35,454 nucleotides of DNA, taken from Lentisphaeria bacterium (GTDB lineage Bacteria; Verrucomicrobiota; Lentisphaeria; JABSQK01; CAJWLW01). Location of the stretch: NCBI GenBank assembly GCA_963582235.1, contig CAUZRT010000003.1, positions 1 through 35,454 of the forward strand, in the 5' to 3' direction. The translations under genes and the position numbers were made by a program. Shown piece after piece: positions 3,281-32,801 of the stretch (position 1 is the first letter of the stretch; each line of letters opens with the position of its first letter). The notes beneath the pieces were generated by a model. The model ran no database searches. It was given only the letters and a program-made list of their open reading frames with translations, and had not been told where the DNA came from.

Positions 3281-4321
3281 TCAGTCCTTTCTGCCGATCG
3301 CCAGCATACGATCGATGGCGCCGCGGGCCCGCACGCGGATGTCCTCCGGCACGGTGATGACATATTGAATGTGACGGAGCGCGTCCAGCGTTTCTTCCAG
3401 CGTGATTTCGTTCATGTGCGGACAGCGAATACTGCAAATCCGAACCATCTCCTTATCCGGATTCTCCGCAATGATGTTGTCACCCATGCTGCATTCCGTC
3501 AATATCAGATAGCGGTCGGCATTGCTGTTCTGGACGTACTTGACCATGGCCGTCGTACTGCCGGAATAATCGGACGCCTCGACGACGTCCGGCGGACACT
3601 CGGGATGCGCGAGGACGACAACGTCCGGAAACTGCCTTCGCGCGTTGTCGATGTCATCGACGGTGAACTTCTCATGCACCTCACAGCGGCCATGCCAACC
3701 GATGAGCTCGTAGTCCAGCTCCGGGTCGGTCTTCGGTGTGTGTGTGGGGAAAATAATGTGTTTGCCGGTTTCGCGGGCAACGTTCTTTGCCAAATACTCA
3801 TCCGGAAGGAAAATGACGGTATCGGTGTCGAACGATTCAACGACCGCCCGGGCGTTGCTGGACGTACAGCAGATATCCGTTTCTGCTTTGACGTCGGCAT
3901 AGGTATTGATGTAGGTGACGACCGGCACCCCGGGATACTGTTCCTTCAAGTTGCGAACGTCATCGGCCGTGATGCTGGCGGCCAGGGAGCAGCCGGCCCG
4001 TTTCGCCGGCAGCAGCACGGTCTTTTCAGGGCAAAGTATCTTCGCCGTTTCCGCCATGAATCGAACGCCGCAGAAGACAATGATGTCTTTGTCCGTTGCC
4101 GCCGCCTGGCGGCTCAACTCGAGCGAATCCCCCGTGAAGTCGGGGACCGTGTGAAAAAGGGCAGGCTCCATGTAATTATGGCCGAGAATGACGGCATTGC
4201 GCTCTTTCTTGAGCGTATTGATCTCGGCGACCAGGTCTGCCTTGATGCGCAGCTCGAAATCGGGAATGATATCGCCGAGCTTCGCTTTCATTTTTTCATA
4301 GGTCTGTTGGACGGTACTCAT
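3281..4321 (-). CDS. nadA: Quinolinate synthase NadA
   Basis: ILGHNY, FCGVRFMAE, AGCSLA, YINT, CTSSNA, CEVHE, AHPEC and CPHMN motifs. Start placed at ATG 4321 (MSTVQQ). Confidence 0.96.
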   Translation of the reverse strand: MSTVQQTYEKMKAKLGDIIPDFELRIKADLVAEINTLKKERNAVILGHNYMEPALFHTVPDFTGDSLELSRQAAATDKDIIVFCGVRFMAETAKILCPEKTVLLPAKRAGCSLAASITADDVRNLKEQYPGVPVVTYINTYADVKAETDICCTSSNARAVVESFDTDTVIFLPDEYLAKNVARETGKHIIFPTHTPKTDPELDYELIGWHGRCEVHEKFTVDDIDNARRQFPDVVVLAHPECPPDVVEASDYSGSTTAMVKYVQNSNADRYLILTECSMGDNIIAENPDKEMVRICSIRCPHMNEITLEETLDALRHIQYVITVPEDIRVRARGAIDRMLAIGRKD

Positions 4322-4412
4322 GGGGTATCTTATCTGCAGGACCCGGATTCGATTGTTTTCGCGGACTCCGCAAAAACATATTGTCTTACGCATCCCGTTG
4401 ATTAACATATCG

Positions 4413-4437
4413 CGGTATGGTACTGTTGCCAATACCG
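4413..4437. promoter_or_regulatory. Imperfect palindrome between divergent nadA and cinA, candidate NrtR-like operator
   Basis: CGGTATGGTACTGTTGCCAATACCG contains TAT-G-GT-N7-CC-A-ATA, one mismatch from the GT-N7-AC core. Confidence 0.25.
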
Positions 4438-4585
4438 CTGCCCCGTGCACCGCCCCCGCCAGCGGCAGTGCCAAAGTCAATTCTCAGTGTATCCGTCTGC
4501 CGACGACGAATGATTCCGCTCGTCCTGCAACGGGCAGGCGCCGAAGCCACGACTGCGGGTTCCCTGAATTTTTACCGCATAAGAC

Positions 4586-8999: not shown

Positions 9000-10016
9000 T
9001 CAGACAACCTCGGGCCGCCTGAATTTGTAGGTTATGAAGAAGAATCCCCCGGTCAGACTGACGCTGGCGATGACGATGCTTAACATAACCGGAATGATGT
9101 TGGCCTTCGCCGCATCGGCGCCGGCAGCGTCTAAGAACGCTGATAGGACAAAGTCGCGACTGCCCAGGCCGGCAGGCGTCAGGGGAATGGATGCGATGGT
9201 GTTGGCAACTAGTGTCGCCAAAAAGTATTGAGGAAGGGCAACCGTCTCCTCGCGAAAACTTTTGCCGATAACAAAAACGCTGGCGGCAAATACTGAATGG
9301 GTGCCGACCGAAAGCAGCACTGCCACGGCAACAACGCCGGACTTCCGGCGATAGAGATTGAGGGCCGTTGACAGACGGCCGACGACGTTGGTGATGCGCG
9401 CCGGTAAATGCCGGGCGCCGGCTGTTATTGCATGGCGAACGCCTGGCAGCCCTTCGAGTCGCTCGCGGAATCGGACGGCCAGGATCGCCATCATGCCGGC
9501 AATGCTGCCGCTGGCAACAATGACGGTCGCCAACTGGATCGTCGCCGACGCATCCAGTAAAAACCGAAGCGACAGGAGTACCGACAACAGAGCGACGATA
9601 AAGAGCCCGAAAATGCCGAAGATGCGGTCAAGCATAATGGTAAGCATAGCCTCACCCATTCTACCGCGCACATGCGGTGTCAGGAATGCCATCTTCACCA
9701 GATCGCCGCTGACGGTGCCGGGAATCGCGAGGCTGAAGAAGATCCCGATCATCGTCAAGCTGATCACCTCGCGTGCCGGTAGATCAATTCCCTGAACCTT
9801 GAGCAGCAGATGCCATCGATATGCGGCGGTGCCGATGACTAGGAAGTAAGCGCCAAAGGGAATCGCCAGCAGGGGTAGGATGCACCGACGCAGTTCGGCA
9901 GCGAAATCAACGTCATTTCGCGACAGGACGAAGTAAATGAGAAAGGCCGCCAGCGTGATACCGACGGTAGCCCGAAGAGCGGTAACGGTCAGGGATCTCA
10001 GACGGTGAGCTGCCAT
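9000..10016 (-). CDS. Lysylphosphatidylglycerol synthase TM / flippase-like (UPF0104) protein
   Basis: RWHLLL, PGTVSGDLVK, LDRIFG and IPLTPAGLGSRD motifs. Confidence 0.88.
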   Translation of the reverse strand: MAAHRLRSLTVTALRATVGITLAAFLIYFVLSRNDVDFAAELRRCILPLLAIPFGAYFLVIGTAAYRWHLLLKVQGIDLPAREVISLTMIGIFFSLAIPGTVSGDLVKMAFLTPHVRGRMGEAMLTIMLDRIFGIFGLFIVALLSVLLSLRFLLDASATIQLATVIVASGSIAGMMAILAVRFRERLEGLPGVRHAITAGARHLPARITNVVGRLSTALNLYRRKSGVVAVAVLLSVGTHSVFAASVFVIGKSFREETVALPQYFLATLVANTIASIPLTPAGLGSRDFVLSAFLDAAGADAAKANIIPVMLSIVIASVSLTGGFFFITYKFRRPEVV

Positions 10017-10103
10017 GCGGCTATATGACCCCAGGCACGGGCGGCAGTTCGAAGATTATGCTTGTCAACAGTGTGTTGTGACCTGATCATGACAGATGCC
10101 ACA

Positions 10104-10166
10104 CAAAAAAAATTATGAAATTTTTTCCCGGTCAGTATTGCAATGAAACTAGGGTCACTCTATAAT
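10104..10166 (+). promoter_or_regulatory. sigma70-type promoter with upstream A/T tracts (UP-element-like)
   Basis: TTGCAA (10138-10143), a 17-bp spacer and TATAAT (10161-10166), preceded by AAAAAAAATTATGAAATTTTTT in an otherwise GC-rich sequence. Confidence 0.75.
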
Positions 10167-10394
10167 AGAGATTCGACATGGGAATTACTCATCCGATTCC
10201 GGGGTAATTTTCGCTTTTAGGTAGCACAACAAATGCCCGCATCTCGGGGCCCTTGACGGACTACATCGGCAGGTTTCCATCCGGCTTCCGTCGACTGCGG
10301 AATCGGTATATTTCGTCCGTGTCAACAGCCGGAGTTTCCATCCGTCCCTGTTGCAAAGCCAACCCCGTACAACGTGGAGCCGAGTTAGGCAATA

Positions 10395-11663
10395 ATGTAC
10401 CACAAGAATGATCCGATGAAAGTCTATATGCAGGATATAGGCGAGATCCCACTGATCACCAAGCTGGAGGAAGTTGAACTGGCCGCCAAGATCAAGGTTG
10501 GTGACGAGCTGGCGCGGCAAAAGCTGATCAAGGCCAATCTGCGTCTGGTCGTCAAAATTGCTCATGATTTCAAAGGATTCGGGCTTCCATTACTTGACCT
10601 GATATCCGAGGGGAATATCGGATTGATGCGCGCCGCCGAGAAATTCGACCCGGCCAAGGGCGCCAAGTTCAGCAGTTACTCAGCTTGGTGGATCAAGCAG
10701 TCCATGCGCCGGGCGCTGTCCCAGAAGAGCCGAACGATTCGCGTCCCCGTCGCCTCCGCCGGTAAAATCAATAAGATCCGCACGGCCAAGATCCAACTCG
10801 CCGAGAAGCTTGGCAGGGTAGCGACAGATACTGAAATCGCCGAGCATCTCGACTTTACCAAGCGAACCGTACAGGGATTGAAACTTGCCGACCTGAAAAC
10901 CTTCTCGCTTCATGATCCGATTCAAAAAGGCGAAGAAGGTAGTTTCGAGGACATCATTCCCGACTCCTCGGCGTCGACTCCCGATGAAATTATTGAAGAC
11001 ACCGAAAGCATCCAGCGTCTGCGGGGTCTCATTCACAACCTGGATGAGCGCGAAAAGACGATTCTGATCATGCGTTACGGCCTCGATGGAAATCGCCCGA
11101 AGACGTTGGAGGAGGTGAGCCGGATCATCGGCCGTACCCGCGAACGCGTCCGCCAGATTCAGATGCAGTCGCTGAAAAAACTCAAGGCCATGATCGATGA
11201 TGAGACGTTCGATAATGACGGGAAACGGCTGTTGCAGTCGCAGAAGTCGCAAGAAGAGGGTTGGCCGTCATCCGACGCTGCCGGACTGTCGAACAACGGC
11301 AAGCGCATGGCAGCAACGGATGCAGACGATATGAAAAAGGCGTCAGGCGGGCGAGCCAATTTCCGGACTAACGGCCGCAGCCAATTATTCCGTACGATGT
11401 CGAAGAATGGGCAGCCTTTGATCGATGCCAAGATTCGGCGAATGAAGAATGGGGCTCTGGGGGCTGCGAAAGCCGGACTGAGCACCCTGAAAATATCAAC
11501 CCGCAGCATGAATAGTCTGCGGTCCGTGGGTGTCCGGTCGGTGGCGGAATTGGCGTCGAAGTCTCCAGTCGAACTCCTCGGCATTCGCTTCTTTGGCGAG
11601 AAATGTCTGGCGGAGGCTCAGTTGGCGTTGGCTAAATACTACAAGGTTTCGAATCATCGGTGA
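10395..11663 (+). CDS. RpoD/RpoS-like (group-2-like) sigma70 factor fused to a C-terminal RNAP alpha-CTD domain
   Basis: Region 1.2 DPMKVYMQDIG, region 2 NLRLVV...DLISEGNIGLMRAAEKFDP...WWIKQ, region 4 TLEEV...RERVRQI. No region 1.1. The C-terminus LKISTRSMNSLRSVGVRSVAELASKSPVELLGIRFFGEKCLAEAQLAL resembles alpha-CTD. Confidence 0.9.
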   Translation: MYHKNDPMKVYMQDIGEIPLITKLEEVELAAKIKVGDELARQKLIKANLRLVVKIAHDFKGFGLPLLDLISEGNIGLMRAAEKFDPAKGAKFSSYSAWWIKQSMRRALSQKSRTIRVPVASAGKINKIRTAKIQLAEKLGRVATDTEIAEHLDFTKRTVQGLKLADLKTFSLHDPIQKGEEGSFEDIIPDSSASTPDEIIEDTESIQRLRGLIHNLDEREKTILIMRYGLDGNRPKTLEEVSRIIGRTRERVRQIQMQSLKKLKAMIDDETFDNDGKRLLQSQKSQEEGWPSSDAAGLSNNGKRMAATDADDMKKASGGRANFRTNGRSQLFRTMSKNGQPLIDAKIRRMKNGALGAAKAGLSTLKISTRSMNSLRSVGVRSVAELASKSPVELLGIRFFGEKCLAEAQLALAKYYKVSNHR

Positions 11664-11705
11664 CCTGCCTCGTTGGCCGGATGCCGATAATTGATCCGTC
11701 TGTGC

Positions 11706-11754
11706 AACAGCGCCGGCCCGGGAACGATTTCCGGGCCGGCGTTGTTTTGTTTTT
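11706..11754 (+). terminator. Rho-independent terminator after the sigma gene
   Basis: AACAGCGCCGGCCCGGGAA-CGA-TTTCCGGGCCGGCGTTGTT stem followed by TTGTTTTT. Confidence 0.85.
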
Positions 11755-11768
11755 GGCTGGGTGTTTGG

Positions 11769-11929
11769 GCGTAACTACTCAGGTGGAAGGGGGATAGTGG
11801 ACGATGGATGGTGGACAGTCGCGACCGAGTTCCAGCGTTTAACGCCAAATTAGCAAAGGCCATTTCTGTGAACATGCGACGGACGTTGGACGGATCTTCT
11901 GCCTCCACCTTCCACCTGAGTAGTTACGC
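11769..11929. mobile_element. MITE-like element, copy 1
   Basis: Perfect 22-bp inverted repeat: GCGTAACTACTCAGGTGGAAGG (11769-11790) and CCTTCCACCTGAGTAGTTACGC (11908-11929). A diverged copy lies at 33839-33974. Confidence 0.75.
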
Positions 11930-12363
11930 TCGGGCTAGTCCGAAAATTAGCGATCCTATAATGATTGTCCAGCGGCCGGGCGCCAGCCACCGCCAGCCTC
12001 CTCACGTGCGGCATTGAATCGTAATTTCCGGCAGATTCGCCGTCAGCGGCGGCGGTTCACGCGTCACCGTTGCCCGGCGAAGGGGTCGGGGAGAGAAATC
12101 GAGAGGTGGATCAAATCAGTATGGTGGGCGCTAGGTTCCGGCGATGAGAACATAGCGGGCTTGCACTCTCGCTCGGGTCAAGCTGCCAACCTCCGGCCGG
12201 CCGGATCGATCCGACGCGGCCATGCGCTGCCAGCCACAGCCCGCGGTTGCCGCACACTCTGCCACGAACTCACCTGAAATTCACGTGCGGCTGCTATGCA
12301 GATACTTGACGCCGGACTATAATCCACGAATGCATCGGCGGTTTTACACAAACCGGAGCCCGA

Positions 12364-12384
12364 TATCGGCTATCGGCTATCGGG
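12364..12384. repeat. Heptamer tandem repeat (TATCGGC)
   Basis: TATCGGC TATCGGC TATCGGG. Confidence 0.6.
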
Positions 12385-12427
12385 ATCGCTTATGGCGGGG
12401 CTAGTAGTCCGCACAGCGTACTTAAGG

Positions 12428-12640
12428 TGACGGAAAATACCCAAATACCCAAGGGATGTCACAATCCGAATGGCGAAGCTATTTGCGGTCGTGGGTCGGC
12501 CGGTCTCTCCCGCACCTAATGACGAGTGACGACGTTGCTTTCGCCTGTGCGCGTCCGGTCGTTTGGACGGCGGATTTGGAATTTCCCGCCAGGGGGGGCG
12601 GCCAGGCTGTCATTCCCTTGGGTATTTGGGTATTTCGTCA
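12428..12640. repeat. Inverted-repeat element at the aspS 3' end (second MITE-like type)
   Basis: Perfect 22-bp IR: AAATACCCAAATACCCAAGGGA (12435-12456) and TCCCTTGGGTATTTGGGTATTT (12614-12635). It extends imperfectly to TGACG/CGTCA, which includes the aspS stop codon. Confidence 0.7.
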
Positions 12641-14425
12641 TTCCTTGCGGCTCGATTTCGGCATCTGCACTCGGATGTGCAATTCGCGTAACTGGCGCTC
12701 GGTGACTTCCGACGGGGCGCTCATCATCAGATCCTGCGCCTGCTGATTCATTGGAAAGGCGATGACTTCGCGAATGTTCTGTGCCTTCGCCAGCAGCATG
12801 ACGATGCGATCGATTCCCGGGGCAATGCCGCCATGGGGCGGCGCGCCGTACCGAAAGGCATTGATCAGACCGGGGAACTTCGTGTCGACCACAGCGGGAC
12901 CGTGCCCGGCAATCTCGAACGCCTTGTACATGATCTCCCGGCGGTGATTCCGAATCGCACCGCTGGACAGTTCGAGGCCGTTGCACACCAGATCATACTG
13001 GTAGGCAAGGATCTCAAGGGGGTTCTGCGTTTCCAGCGCCGCCATCTCGCCCTGAGGCATTGAAAACGGATTGTGCGAAAATCCGATCTCGCCGGTTGAA
13101 TCGTCACGCTCGAACATCGGATAATCGACAATCCAACAGAAACGGTAGGCATTCGCCTCGAGCAGATCCAATCGGTTCGCCAGTTCCGTCCGCACGGCTG
13201 CGCCGATTTCACAGGCGCCCTTCTCTTTGTCGGCGATAAAGAACATCACATCGCCGTCTTCAATCTGCCCCGCCTGCTTTAATTTCTCAAGGGTATCCGG
13301 CGACAGAAACTTGACAATGGGGCTGCGCTCCTCGCCATTTTTCCAGCCGATATAGGCCAGCCCCTTGGCGCCGACGGACTGGGCATAGGCGATCATGTCG
13401 TCAAAGAATTTGCGCGGCTGATCGACAATCCCCTTCACGGAAATCGCCCGCACCACACCGCCTTTCTTGACGACTCCGGCAAAGGCATTGAATGCGGAGT
13501 CCGCAAATGCTGCCGTCACGTCGATGAGGCGCAGCGGGTTGCGTAAGTCGGGCTTGTCACTGCCGAATTCGAACAGTGCCTGTTTATATGGAATCCGGAC
13601 GAAGGGCGCTGCCGCGACATGTGCGTCTTCGGAGAACTCCGAGAAGACACCTGTCATGACCGCTTCGACGACCCCGAAGATGTCATCCTGGGTGGCAAAC
13701 GACATTTCCAAGTCCAATTGGTAAAACTCGCCCGGCGAGCGATCGGCGCGGGAATCCTCATCGCGGAAACACGGGGCGATTTGAAAGTAGCGGTCGAACC
13801 CGGCGACCATCAGGAGTTGCTTGAAGATTTGCGGCGCCTGGGGAAGCGCATAGAATTTACCCGGATGCAGTCGGCTGGGCACAAGAAAATCGCGGGCGCC
13901 CTCCGGTGAGCTTGATGTCAGGATCGGCGTCTGGATCTCGTTGAAGCTCAGATCGACCATGCGCCGGCGAATACTTGCAATGATGGCCGATCGCAGACGG
14001 ATGCCGGTCTGCAGTGCCTCCCGGCGCAGATCCAGGAATCGGTAACGCAGGCGGGTGCTCTCCGGGCACGGCATCTCATCGGCGACGCTGATCGGCAGGA
14101 TCTCGGCGCGGCTCAATACCGTCATGGTTTCGGCGACCAGCTCGATTTCGCCGGTGGCGAGCTTTTTATTGACTGTCTCTGGATCTCGCCGGACCACCTC
14201 GCCGGTGAAAGAGACGACGGATTCGAGGCGCCAATGGTGCACGTCTTCATAAAATTCGCGTTCCGGCCGGACGACAATCTGGGTCAGCCCGTAGTGGTCG
14301 CGAAGGTCGAGAAATACAATCCCGCCATGATCCCGGACGCGATGGATCCAACCCGACAAACGCGCGGTCTGTCCGATGTGTTCAGGACGCAAATCATCGC
14401 AGGTGTGTGTTCGATATTGATGCAT
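12638..14425 (-). CDS. aspS: Aspartate--tRNA ligase
   Basis: YRTHTC, RDHGG, PEGARDF, LPQAPQ, FRDED, GGIAPGIDR and VIAFP motifs. Start placed at ATG 14425 (MHQYRTH). Confidence 0.98.
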   Translation of the reverse strand: MHQYRTHTCDDLRPEHIGQTARLSGWIHRVRDHGGIVFLDLRDHYGLTQIVVRPEREFYEDVHHWRLESVVSFTGEVVRRDPETVNKKLATGEIELVAETMTVLSRAEILPISVADEMPCPESTRLRYRFLDLRREALQTGIRLRSAIIASIRRRMVDLSFNEIQTPILTSSSPEGARDFLVPSRLHPGKFYALPQAPQIFKQLLMVAGFDRYFQIAPCFRDEDSRADRSPGEFYQLDLEMSFATQDDIFGVVEAVMTGVFSEFSEDAHVAAAPFVRIPYKQALFEFGSDKPDLRNPLRLIDVTAAFADSAFNAFAGVVKKGGVVRAISVKGIVDQPRKFFDDMIAYAQSVGAKGLAYIGWKNGEERSPIVKFLSPDTLEKLKQAGQIEDGDVMFFIADKEKGACEIGAAVRTELANRLDLLEANAYRFCWIVDYPMFERDDSTGEIGFSHNPFSMPQGEMAALETQNPLEILAYQYDLVCNGLELSSGAIRNHRREIMYKAFEIAGHGPAVVDTKFPGLINAFRYGAPPHGGIAPGIDRIVMLLAKAQNIREVIAFPMNQQAQDLMMSAPSEVTERQLRELHIRVQMPKSSRKE

Positions 14426-14582
14426 CTGCCTTGCCGCAGCCGCCGGTAATTTCCCGGGGCGCATCTGTGAATTGGTCAATTGCAGACCCCGTTAAATCCC
14501 GTCACGGCATTCGTAAGCGGATCGTGTATGATCAAAAAAATACATAATTTAATACGAATCCATGAAAATAGAAAGAACGCGA

Positions 14583-32458: not shown

Positions 32459-32746
32459 ATGAGTCAGATGTATTACGTCTACGTCTTATACAGTATTAGT
32501 CACGACAAACTCTACATAGGCAGTTGTGCCGAACCGGATGAGCGATTGATCGCACACAATGCCGGGCGCGGGGGTTGGGTCCAAGCGATACCAGACCCTG
32601 GACCCGCGTTCTGCTCGAAGAGTATCCGGATCAGCCTGGCGGGTAAGCGCGGGAGGTCCCTAAAATCCGGATGGGGGCGCAGATGGCTGCAAAAATTCCT
32701 TAACTACAAGGAGGGGTGGCTGAGTGGTTTAAGGCAACGGTCTTGA
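32459..32746 (+). pseudogene. Small stand-alone GIY-YIG nuclease, internally scrambled
   Basis: YYVYVLYS...LYIGS...RL..HN.G and LKSG.GR motifs. The central SKRY/RPW..VLLEEY segment is out of frame, and the expected KRE reads KRG. Confidence 0.85.
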
Positions 32747-32801
32747 AAACCGTCGTGGGCTTTTCGGTCCACCGTGGGTTCGAATCCCACCCCCTCCGCC
32801 A
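32710..32801 (+). tRNA. tRNA-Ser(UGA)
   Basis: Acceptor stem GGAGGGG/CCCCTCC, anticodon arm ACGGT-CTTGAAA-ACCGT, long variable arm, GTTCGAATC T-loop, G73 and encoded CCA. Confidence 0.97.

What the first reader, a model, noticed from the sequence alone, without database searches (positions are those of the whole stretch)
10395..11663. Sigma70 factor carrying its own RNA polymerase alpha-CTD
Seen: complete sigma regions 1.2-4.2 without region 1.1, a roughly 90-aa low-complexity charged linker, then a domain (about 11475-11640) matching alpha-CTD. STRSMN aligns to TVRSAN and FFGEKC to NLGKKS, keeping equivalents of the E. coli DNA-contacting R265, N268, G296 and K298. Known: alpha-CTD binds UP elements and activators and touches sigma region 4. 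Inference: this holoenzyme would have a third, sigma-tethered alpha-CTD giving built-in UP-element selectivity or activator independence. I do not recognise this as a characterised sigma architecture.
Basis: partly seen in the sequence, partly recalled or inferred. Interest (0 to 1): 0.85.

Follow-up and report, generated by a model that had tools for sequence, protein, structure and literature searches.

The report
Sigma factor with built-in alpha-CTD
A Lentisphaeria bacterium, like the other sequenced members of its order, has an RNA polymerase sigma factor ending in a copy of the DNA-binding domain normally found only on the polymerase's alpha subunit, probably a built-in reader of DNA just upstream of promoters.

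Summary
Window 10395-11663 (+) encodes a 422-aa sigma-70 protein. It has regions 1.2, 2, 3 and 4, then an 87-aa disordered linker, then a true RNA_pol_A_CTD domain (44 bits against a cut-off of 23.8). A model of that domain overlays solved alpha-CTDs at 0.7-1.2 A.

It is not an assembly artefact:
- 60 of the 120 best protein clusters share the architecture.
- All 15 genomes held for the order have RpoA's CTD plus this second one. The fusion is one open frame in 14; one record is broken by N runs.
- None of 129 other genomes of the class has a second alpha-CTD.
- Contigs from 3 RNA libraries and 1 independent DNA run cross the junction without indels.

rpoA keeps its own CTD. The DNA-contact positions are invariant in 60 family members: R265 60/60, N268 60/60, G296 60/60, K298 59/60. 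The alpha surfaces that contact sigma and activators are not kept.

The fusion clade arose within an order-specific triplication of the class's most conserved sigma lineage.

Best reading, at about 0.55: a sigma-tethered third alpha-CTD that binds A/T-rich DNA next to the -35 element. I found no publication describing it. I rate it a new variant of a known kind.

The parts
10105..10126 (+). A/T-rich block (21 of 22 bases are A or T), 12-33 bp upstream of the -35-like hexamer. This is where an UP element would lie.
   Evidence: Sequence read. Four same-family orthologous loci (L100, L101, L102, L104) each have an A8-A9 tract at the same place before TTGACA-17-TATxTT. Function not tested.
10138..10166 (+). 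Promoter-like site TTGCAA-17-TATAAT (10 of 12 matches), about 230 nt upstream of the ATG.
   Evidence: 5 sites found in the region against 1.7 expected from shuffles. In 2 of 3 RNA-library runs a higher-depth contig begins at 10143 or 10188. That is only a weak hint, because contigs cannot show transcript starts.
10395..11663 (+). Complete gene for the sigma70-alpha-CTD fusion protein (422 aa, P0001).
   Evidence: Contigs of 4 of 4 laid runs cover the ORF without indels.
10410..10511 (+). Sigma region 1.2 (residues 6-39).
   Evidence: Pfam PF00140, 40.3 bits, cut-off 22.
10524..10736 (+). Sigma region 2 (residues 44-114): core binding and -10 recognition.
   Evidence: Pfam PF04542, 65.8 bits. 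Mean column identity 0.98 in 60 family members.
10764..10988 (+). Sigma region 3 (residues 124-198).
   Evidence: Pfam PF04539, 56.2 bits.
11031..11186 (+). Sigma region 4 (residues 213-264): -35 recognition helix-turn-helix.
   Evidence: Pfam PF04545, 50.2 bits. The E. coli R584, E585, R586, R588 and Q589 equivalents are invariant. The R603 equivalent (D268) is acidic in 15 of 15 fusion sigmas.
11199..11459 (+). Disordered linker (residues 269-355, 87 aa).
   Evidence: pLDDT below 50 over residues 282-336. Length is 42-87 aa (median 61) in 60 members, with mean column identity 0.18.
11475..11630 (+). Alpha-CTD-like helix-hairpin-helix domain (Pfam match residues 361-412; the fold runs to about residue 421).
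   Evidence: PF03118, 44.1 bits against cut-off 23.8. pLDDT 91-96. Fold matches: 7vpd_S TM 0.93 at 0.7 A, 1lb2_E at 1.2 A, 3n97_B at 0.9 A. DNA-contact residues invariant.
11706..11756 (+). Terminator-like hairpin (19-bp stem, 12 G-C pairs) followed by a T-run, 43 nt after the stop codon.
   Evidence: RNA-library contigs nevertheless run past it, so termination is not shown.
9000..10016 (-). Divergently transcribed neighbour, an LPG_synthase_TM-family membrane protein (338 aa). Its pairing with the fusion gene is conserved.
   Evidence: Pfam PF03706, 108 bits. Found next to the fusion gene in 10 related genomes of three families. Found beside 0 of the 71 non-fusion sigma loci.

Best explanation
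The gene encodes a working group-1/2-type sigma-70 factor. After region 4.2, its C-terminus continues through a flexible, poorly conserved 42-87-aa tether into a DNA-binding alpha-CTD.

In the holoenzyme, region 4 sits on the -35 element. The tethered domain, held next to the upstream face of region 4, then inserts its conserved Arg/Asn/Gly-Lys helix-hairpin-helix surface into the minor groove of A/T-rich DNA just upstream of -35. That is the place the -35-proximal RpoA CTD occupies at UP-element promoters. The enzyme would therefore carry three alpha-CTDs, one of them specific to this sigma. This gives the sigma extra promoter affinity or selectivity that its bare-core paralogues lack, although they share the same -35 and -10 recognition residues.

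Shown here: the domain identities, the fold, conservation of the DNA-contact residues, an intact RpoA CTD, restriction to one order, and presence in that order. Inferred: DNA binding, the site of binding, and the effect on transcription.
For: 1. Five Pfam domains above their cut-offs, with RNA_pol_A_CTD at 44.1 against 23.8 bits.
2. The domain-only model matches solved alpha-CTDs, including DNA-bound ones: 1lb2_E at 1.2 A over 60 columns, and 3n97_B (alpha-CTD with sigma region 4 on UP/-35 DNA) at 0.9 A over 55 columns.
3. In 60 family members the E. coli DNA-contact positions are fixed: R265 60/60, N268 60/60, G296 60/60, K298 59/60, and position 299 is Cys in 60/60. Positions 261 and 285-287 vary, and the domain ends near position 312.
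4. The domain has mean column identity 0.70 against 0.18 for the linker.
5. All 15 order genomes have the second alpha-CTD in addition to RpoA's, and it shares the sigma's open frame in 14. None of the 129 other genomes of the class has one.
6. The genome's own rpoA keeps R265, N268, C269, G296, K298 and S299.
7. The -35 recognition residues are identical in the fusion clade and its two bare-core paralogue clades, so the alpha-CTD is the main difference between them.
8. The sigma70 R603 equivalent is acidic in 15 of 15 fusion sigmas. Position 261 of the fused domain is basic in 34 of 60 and acidic in 2 of 60. This reverses the charges of the E. coli alpha E261 / sigma R603 contact, which I recall from Ross et al. 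2003.
9. The gene's own promoter-like site has an A/T block where an UP element would lie. Four same-family loci repeat that arrangement.
10. The locus is present, without indels, in contigs of 3 RNA libraries from 3 studies.
Against: - There is no direct test of DNA binding or of holoenzyme formation.
- Positions 291 and 294 are not conserved (G/S/K... and Y/F). In E. coli these contact the DNA backbone (recalled).
- The tether (median 61 aa) is far longer than the -35-proximal site would need.
- The acidic residue at the R603 position is shared by the ORD-A paralogues, which have no alpha-CTD (D8/E2). It therefore predates the fusion and is not specific to it.
- Position 261 is neutral in 24 of 60 members.
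- The genome-wide test was weak. An A/T run of 6 bp or more lies upstream of 59 of 269 properly spaced -35/-10-like sites and of 59 of 385 wrong-spacer decoys. A distant control window shows a similar trend, 38/269 against 42/385.
- The A-tract arrangement is not evident at the more distant orthologous loci.
- RNA-library contigs do not prove transcription.
Confidence: 0.55

Rival explanations
1. The tethered alpha-CTD is mainly a protein-docking module. It would give this sigma its own landing pad for activators or other alpha-CTD-binding partners of the kinds that bind RpoA's CTD in model bacteria, rather than binding DNA itself.
For: Solved structures with the same fold include alpha-CTD bound to Spx (3gfk_B, 1z3e_B), CAP (1lb2_E), RpaA (9dvt_A), AfsR (8hvr_K) and GlnR (8hih_G), so the fold is a known protein hub. 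In metagenomic proteins the domain is also combined with TPR repeats (P0197, P0229).
Against: The known protein-contact surfaces are the least conserved parts. Position 261 is K28/N10/R5/G4 and others. Positions 285-287 vary. The segment after about position 312, which carries part of the '287 determinant' (recalled), is missing. The DNA-contact residues, by contrast, are invariant.
Confidence: 0.15
2. The acidic start of the linker and the alpha-CTD act in cis as an autoinhibitory element. They would stand in for the missing region 1.1, masking region 4 (or region 2) of free sigma until core polymerase binds.
For: The protein lacks region 1.1. The residues just after region 4 form a conserved acidic patch (E/D 15/15, D 14/15, E 12/15, then D/E 15/15 three positions later). 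The long flexible tether would allow folding back.
Against: Both bare-core paralogue clades also lack region 1.1 and have no alpha-CTD, so the lineage does without such a mask. Invariance of the minor-groove-reading residues R265 and N268 is not explained by a masking role.
Confidence: 0.12
3. The fusion is an assembly or annotation artefact, or a neutral passenger domain without function.
For: The window comes from a fragmented genome (442 contigs, 88.8% complete). One related record (the G004 copy, L104) is interrupted by N runs.
Against: - 60 of the 120 listed protein clusters, down to 54% identity, share the five-domain architecture.
- It is one open frame in 14 of 15 order genomes.
- Contigs of 4 of 4 runs cross the junction without indels.
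- The domain has column identity 0.70 against 0.18 for the linker, with invariant functional residues.
- The fusion sigmas form one clade with 100/99 support.
Confidence: 0.03

Closest known systems
[quoted passage not shown] 1LB2, 3N97, 3K4G, 1COO, 7VPD)
   Same: Same Pfam family above the cut-off. Same fold at 0.7-1.2 A rmsd. Same DNA-contact residues at R265, N268, G296 and K298. It is also attached through a flexible linker.
   Different: - It is attached to the C-terminus of a sigma factor, not to the alpha N-terminal dimerisation domain.
- The linker is 42-87 aa; RpoA's is short (recalled).
- Position 261 is mostly basic, not acidic.
- Position 299 is always Cys.
- Position 294 is Tyr or Phe.
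- The domain ends near position 312.
- It scores 43-64 bits against 80-90 bits for the same genomes' RpoA CTDs.
Group 1/2 sigma-70 factors (RpoD/SigA, RpoS)
   Same: Regions 1.2, 2, 3 and 4 are present. The whole-protein model matches SigA and sigma-S chains at 34-42% identity. The -35 recognition residues are conserved.
   Different: Below every NCBIfam equivalog cut-off (RpoS 272.8 against 378.7; RpoD_Cterm 238.7 against 354). No region 1.1. Carries a C-terminal alpha-CTD.
Bare-core paralogues of the same order (ORD-A and ORD-B, about 285-320 aa) and the N-terminally extended sigma of sister orders
   Same: 57-71% identical in the core. Sister clades in the tree. Identical -35 recognition residues.
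   Different: They end a few residues after region 4.2 or carry N-terminal extensions of about 30-400 aa instead. None has an alpha-CTD.
Alpha-CTD repeats combined with Sigma70_r4 only (with or without HARE-HTH), found here in other classes of the phylum and in metagenomes
   Same: Same two domain types in one polypeptide. Examples: L025, L035, L023 and L024; P0121, P0250, P0246, P0148, P0143 and P0186.
   Different: They lack regions 1.2, 2 and 3, so they cannot act as sigma factors. The alpha-CTD usually comes before region 4 and is often repeated 2-7 times. The single-copy HARE-type alpha-CTDs (L023, L025, L035) score only 24-29 bits against the fusion-domain profile. I found no publication on them.
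ECF sigma factors with fused C-terminal regulatory extensions (recalled; for one example, OrbS in PMC9023288, I saw only the search listing and abstract start)
   Same: A sigma-70-family protein extended at its C-terminus by an extra functional module.
   Different: Those are group 4 sigmas, and their extensions sense signals or regulate activity. Here a group-1/2-type sigma carries a borrowed polymerase DNA-binding domain.

Membership tests
Sigma-70 family, group 1/2 type | Regions 2, 3 and 4 (and 1.2) present | tested here: met
   PF04542 65.8 bits, PF04539 56.2, PF04545 50.2, PF00140 40.3, all above their cut-offs.
Sigma-70 family, group 1/2 type | Conserved -35 and -10 recognition residues (E. 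coli R584, E585, R588, Q589; Y430, W433, W434, Q437) | tested here: met
   All are invariant in the 15 fusion sigmas when aligned to E. coli RpoD from NC_000913. T440 is Arg in the whole lineage.
Group 1 (primary) sigma, RpoD | Region 1.1 or an N-terminal extension, and a score above the RpoD equivalog cut-offs | tested here: not met
   The protein starts at region 1.2. TIGR02393 scores 238.7 against a cut-off of 354, and NF004208 scores 236 against 555.
Group 1 (primary) sigma, RpoD | The essential, most conserved sigma of the genome | tested here: inconclusive
   - The fusion core is 93-95% identical within the family and 70-72% identical to the sister-order sigma.
- The other large sigma (C43 type) is only 58-62% identical within the family and 33-41% across the class, yet it scores higher on RpoD models.
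- Essentiality cannot be tested here.
RpoS (NCBIfam TIGR02394) | Score above the equivalog cut-off | tested here: not met
   272.8 bits against a cut-off of 378.7.
RNA_pol_A_CTD domain (PF03118) | Profile match above the gathering score | tested here: met
   44.1 bits against 23.8. The domain alone scores 44 bits.
RNA_pol_A_CTD domain (PF03118) | Alpha-CTD fold (compact helical double helix-hairpin-helix) | tested here: met
   pLDDT 91-96. TM-score normalised by target 0.83-0.93 and rmsd 0.7-1.2 A to solved alpha-CTDs. All top matches are alpha-CTDs.
RNA_pol_A_CTD domain (PF03118) | DNA-binding '265 determinant' (R265, N268, C269, G296, K298, S299; list recalled) | tested here: met
   R 60/60, N 60/60, G 60/60, K 59/60. 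Position 269 is S38/G17. Position 299 is C 60/60, a conservative change.
RNA polymerase alpha subunit (RpoA) | N-terminal dimerisation and assembly domain (RNA_pol_L / RNA_pol_A_bac) | tested here: not met
   No such Pfam hit in P0001. The true rpoA is on contig C35 (348 aa). The fusion is therefore not an alpha subunit.
RNA polymerase alpha subunit (RpoA) | Acidic '261 determinant' that contacts sigma region 4 (recalled) | tested here: not met
   Position 261 is K28, R5, H1, N10, G4 and others; acidic in only 2 of 60. Position 259 is A24, T10, E7 and others.
RNA polymerase alpha subunit (RpoA) | '287 determinant' for activator contact, including residues 315-318 (recalled) | tested here: not met
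   Positions 285-287 vary. Positions 313-329 are mostly gaps in the 60 members.

The most novel reading that the evidence does not exclude
In this order of Lentisphaeria the main promoter-recognition subunit has itself become the UP-element reader. After a triplication of the housekeeping sigma lineage, one copy captured an alpha-CTD. Its contact with region 4 is charge-reversed: an acidic residue at the R603 position pairs with a basic residue at position 261. The tethered domain, and not RpoA's acidic-261 CTD, would therefore be the partner next to -35. In the window's own family no ORD-A paralogue was found in 5 of 5 genomes. The fusion protein would then be the housekeeping sigma there, so the default holoenzyme of these bacteria would carry three alpha-CTDs and use a promoter grammar different from the textbook one.
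Probability: 0.25. Interest if true: 0.8.

Novelty: new variant of a known kind. Interest (0 to 1): 0.62.

Why it matters
Textbook bacterial transcription divides the work. Sigma reads the -10 and -35 elements. The two alpha-CTDs read UP elements and receive activators. Here evolution has fused the two functions and kept the fusion across a whole order.

If the tethered domain binds DNA, it is a natural experiment on three questions: how tethering and local concentration set promoter strength, how paralogous sigmas with identical -35/-10 specificity can be told apart, and whether the sigma-4/alpha-CTD contact can be rewired by a charge swap.

It also offers a compact natural design for synthetic sigma factors with built-in UP-element dependence.

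The side finding that alpha-CTD repeats are widely combined with isolated region-4 domains suggests that alpha-CTD plus sigma-4 is a reusable two-part DNA-binding unit beyond RNA polymerase.

Tried and rejected
**Complex prediction.** I sent sigma region 4 (residues 200-280) with the alpha-CTD (residues 340-422), both from alignment A1. The result was no verdict (score 0.02; the mark is 0.32). This is no evidence either way.

**Genome-wide UP-like signal in G000**. There were 269 properly spaced -35/-10-like sites and 385 wrong-spacer decoys. An A/T run of 6 bp or more lay 5-32 bp upstream in 59/269 against 59/385. In a control window the figures were 38/269 against 42/385. This is weak and not position-specific, so inconclusive. 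I analysed no comparator genome without the fusion.

**First tree**. Discarded, because my script translated 10 rows from the wrong strand. One search is the corrected tree.

**Positional orthology**. The LPG_synthase_TM neighbour lies beside 5 of 9 fusion loci in that set and beside 0 of 71 non-fusion sigma loci. Synteny therefore does not link the fusion to the ancestral sigma locus.

**Origin of the domain**. Per-domain scores against the fusion-domain profile were: own RpoA 45.1 bits, E. coli RpoA 35.6, the best mobile repeats up to 57.3, and the HARE-type 24-29. The donor is unresolved.

**Second alpha-CTD copies in other classes**. My ORF extraction gave spurious high-GC frames for 4 of 11 loci (L026, L029, L038, L039), and these stay unresolved. 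L027, L036 and L037 were judged by eye only. G218 and G395 were not examined.

**RNA evidence**. All runs are kept as contigs. They show presence in RNA libraries, not transcription, strand, starts or ends. Contigs also cover the 11750-12640 gap and run past the terminator.

**Intergenic DNA**. BLASTN of 10017-10394 and 11664-12637 against 20 related loci gave no hits.

**Rfam and tRNA scans of the window**. Only tRNA-Ser at 32710-32801.

**Literature.**
- Six searches, for which I saw listings and abstract starts only, gave no paper on a sigma/alpha-CTD fusion.
- In preprint 10.64898/2026.10.08.757525 I saw passages only. It has 0 occurrences of 'CTD' or 'alpha', and I could not see its supplementary figures.
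- Iyer and Aravind 2012 (PMC3769190) is the survey most likely to mention such an architecture, but it is not held. I saw its citation in the reference list of PMC7824862.
- Supplementary files were not consulted.
- No InterPro architecture query was possible.
Full report
**What is there.** Window 10395-11663 (+) is an ATG-initiated ORF of 422 aa.
- Pfam places Sigma70_r1_2 at residues 6-39, r2 at 44-114, r3 at 124-198 and r4 at 213-264.
- After a gap, RNA_pol_A_CTD lies at residues 361-412. It scores 44.1 bits against a gathering score of 23.8 (E 1.7e-11). The last 77 residues alone give the same score.
- There is no region 1.1.
- NCBIfam places the sigma part nearest RpoS (272.8 bits, cut-off 378.7) and RpoD_Cterm (238.7, cut-off 354). 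It is a group-1/2-type sigma that fits no curated equivalog.

**Structure.** An AlphaFold2 model from a 42-sequence family alignment is confident for sigma domains 2, 3 and 4 and for residues 361-421 (pLDDT 91-96). It is disordered over residues 282-336, with pLDDT below 50.
- The whole model matches SigA and sigma-S chains.
- A separate model of the last 85 residues matches solved alpha-CTDs: 7vpd_S (TM by target 0.93, 0.7 A), 9dvt_A, 1lb2_E (E. coli alpha-CTD with CAP and DNA, 1.2 A over 60 columns) and 3n97_B (alpha-CTD with sigma region 4 on UP/-35 DNA, 0.9 A).
- Foldseek E-values are modest (1.6e-3 and weaker), as expected for so short a domain.
- By sequence, the top PDB matches of the last 82 residues are RNA polymerase alpha chains, best E 1.4e-5.

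I took E. coli RpoA from NC_000913 and aligned it with the last 85 residues of 60 family members and with the genome's own RpoA.
- Fixed positions, in E. coli numbering (P0001 number = E. coli number + 105): R265 60/60, N268 60/60, G296 60/60, K298 59/60, L260, L289 and E302 each 60/60, and Phe at position 295 in 60/60.
- Family-specific features: Cys at 299 (60/60), Arg at 293 (58/60) and Tyr/Phe at 294 (54/60).
- Position 261 is K28/R5/H1/N10/G4 and others, with only 2 acidic. Position 259 is mostly Ala or Thr. Positions 285-287 vary.
- The alignment is mostly gaps after position 312.
- So the DNA-reading face is under strong constraint, and the known protein-contact faces are not.

**Not an artefact, and where it occurs.**
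- Of the 120 best clusters in the 5.8-billion-protein search, 60 (including the query) carry all five Pfam domains. They are 54-100% identical and 375-427 aa long. The source labels that exist are mostly Lentisphaeria; one cluster is labelled Rhodothermales.
- The window's genome (3.42 Mb, 442 contigs, 88.8% complete) has exactly two alpha-CTDs. One is the fusion. The other is in a canonical 348-aa rpoA that, judged by eye, lies between S4-like and L17-like genes. That CTD scores 90.3 bits and keeps all six DNA-contact residues.
- All 15 genomes held for the order (5 families, 11 genera) have exactly these two.
- The sigma core and the alpha-CTD lie in one open frame of the same length in 14 genomes. 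In the 15th (G004) the record is interrupted by N runs, with sigma and alpha-CTD sequence on either side.
- In a sample of 401 genomes of the phylum, the 129 genomes of the same class outside the order all have a single alpha-CTD. Only 12 of 267 genomes of other classes have more than one.
- Public records holding the fusion are titled Lentisphaeria or Lentisphaerales MAGs.
- Contigs of three RNA libraries from three studies, and of one independent DNA run, cover the whole ORF. The DNA run has 4 substitutions in the stretch laid (3 of them in the ORF). None has an indel in the ORF.

**Origin.** Non-fused relatives are 57-75% identical in the core. They are either bare cores of about 285-320 aa or carry the core at the end of a protein with a variable N-terminal extension. 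I built a maximum-likelihood tree of 62 cores, rooted on the divergent C43-type sigma.
- All 15 fusion sigmas form one clade (100/99).
- That clade is sister to 12 bare-core paralogues of the same order, ORD-B (95/95).
- Those two together are sister to 10 slower-evolving bare cores of the same order, ORD-A (92/89).
- All 37 together are sister to the N-extended sigma of other orders (87/84).
- So an order-specific triplication occurred, and one copy gained the alpha-CTD once.
- ORD-A was found in all 10 order genomes outside the window's family. It was not found in the 5 genomes of that family (84-94% complete), where an ORD-A query hits the fusion itself best, at 69% identity.

**Which sigma is the housekeeping one** is unresolved.
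- For the fusion lineage: its core is 93-95% identical within the family and still 70-72% identical to the sister-order sigma.
- For the C43 type: it has an N-terminal extension of about 230 aa and scores higher on RpoD models. However, it is only 58-62% identical within the family and 33-41% across the class.

**Mechanistic pointers.**
- The linker is 42-87 aa (median 61; the window's is the longest). It has 76% disorder-promoting residues and mean column identity 0.18, against 0.70 for the domain and 0.88-0.98 for regions 4 and 2. It behaves as a tether.
- Aligned to E. coli RpoD, the -35 recognition residues (R584, E585, R586, R588, Q589) and the region 2.3/2.4 aromatics and Q437 are invariant in the fusion clade and in both paralogue clades. 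All three should therefore read similar -35 and -10 hexamers, and the alpha-CTD is what sets the fusion apart.
- The position of sigma70 R603 contacts alpha D259/E261 in E. coli (recalled: Ross et al. 2003). It is E/D in 15 of 15 fusion sigmas, and the fused domain is mostly basic at position 261.
- The C43-type sigma keeps Arg at that position in 4 of 5, and the genome's RpoA keeps Glu at 259 and 261.
- This is what one would expect if each sigma pairs with a different alpha-CTD. But ORD-A shares the acidic residue, so the change predates the fusion.

**Gene context.**
- A promoter-like TTGCAA-17-TATAAT lies at 10138-10166. A 22-bp A/T block (10105-10126) lies 12-33 bp upstream of it, and a 19-bp-stem terminator-like hairpin lies at 11706-11746.
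- Four same-family loci have TTGACA-17-TATxTT about 205 nt before the ATG, each with an A8-A9 tract at the same relative place. More distant loci show no clear equivalent.
- A divergent LPG_synthase_TM gene (9000-10016, minus strand) accompanies the fusion gene in three families of the order, and accompanies none of 71 non-fusion sigma loci.

**The wider alpha-CTD world.**
- A profile of the fused domain finds 10,301 representatives at E <= 0.001 among 1.84 billion proteins. The top 150 are mostly proteins with 2-12 alpha-CTD repeats.
- I screened 149 of these with a sigma-core HMM. About 60 also contain a region-4-like segment, but only one (P0151, a 255-aa fragment of this family) matches more of the sigma core.
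- Pfam on 10 of them gave alpha-CTD repeats with Sigma70_r4 in 6, TPR with alpha-CTD in 2, alpha-CTD repeats alone in 1, and RNA_pol_L with three alpha-CTDs in 1.
- I examined 10 of the 12 other-class genomes that have extra copies. The 4 proteins I scanned are alpha-CTD (one to three copies) plus Sigma70_r4, one of them also with HARE-HTH.
- So alpha-CTD is a mobile module often paired with region 4. A complete sigma factor with an alpha-CTD was seen only in this family.

**Verdict.** I file it as a new variant of a known kind: a sigma-70-family factor with an accessory domain that, as far as I could find, has not been described on a sigma. I could not read the 2012 Iyer and Aravind survey or query InterPro.

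Noticed in passing
L025:1471-2517 (+), L035:1456-2523 (+), L023:652-1749 (-); also L027, L036, L037 by eye: Other classes of the same phylum encode a protein family of about 350 aa with an N-terminal alpha-CTD, then Sigma70_r4, then a C-terminal domain (HARE-HTH at 21.6 bits, below its cut-off, in L023). This is the reverse domain order and lacks sigma regions 2 and 3.
   Followed up: partly
P0121, P0122, P0123 and most of P0121-P0269; L024:1-1680 (-): Metagenomic proteins with 2-12 tandem alpha-CTD repeats. About 60 of the 149 screened also have a sigma region-4-like segment. The fused-domain profile finds 10,301 representatives at E <= 0.001.
   Followed up: partly
P0128 (326 aa); P0197 and P0229: P0128 has the RNA_pol_L dimerisation domain followed by three alpha-CTDs, so it may be an RpoA with a tripled CTD. 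P0197 and P0229 combine TPR repeats with two alpha-CTDs.
   Followed up: no
window 11664-12637: A 975-bp gap between the convergent sigma gene and aspS (12638-14479, minus strand). It has no ORF with a Pfam hit, no Rfam hit and no BLASTN conservation in relatives, yet RNA-library contigs cover it at the same depth as the sigma gene in 2 of 3 runs.
   Followed up: partly
G000:C43:2634-4037 (-) = L003: The genome's second large sigma (467 aa, N-terminal extension of about 230 aa). It scores best on RpoD models and its clade keeps Arg at the R603 position in 4 of 5 members. Yet it evolves fast: 58-62% identity within the family and 33-41% across the class.
   Followed up: partly
G000-G004 (the window's family): The slow-evolving bare-core paralogue ORD-A is present in all 10 other genomes of the order but was not found in these 5 genomes (84-94% complete). 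G000 also shows no ORD-B copy.
   Followed up: partly
L104 (= the G004 copy), about 3880-4480: This record's copy of the fusion gene is interrupted by 212 N in the linker and the start of the alpha-CTD. It therefore reads as two open frames, of 397 and 205 aa.
   Followed up: yes
P0054: One member of the fusion family is labelled 'Rhodothermales bacterium' by its source, a different phylum from all other labels. This could be mis-binning or gene transfer.
   Followed up: no
window 32710-32801: tRNA-Ser (anticodon TGA), the only RNA gene found in the window.
   Followed up: no
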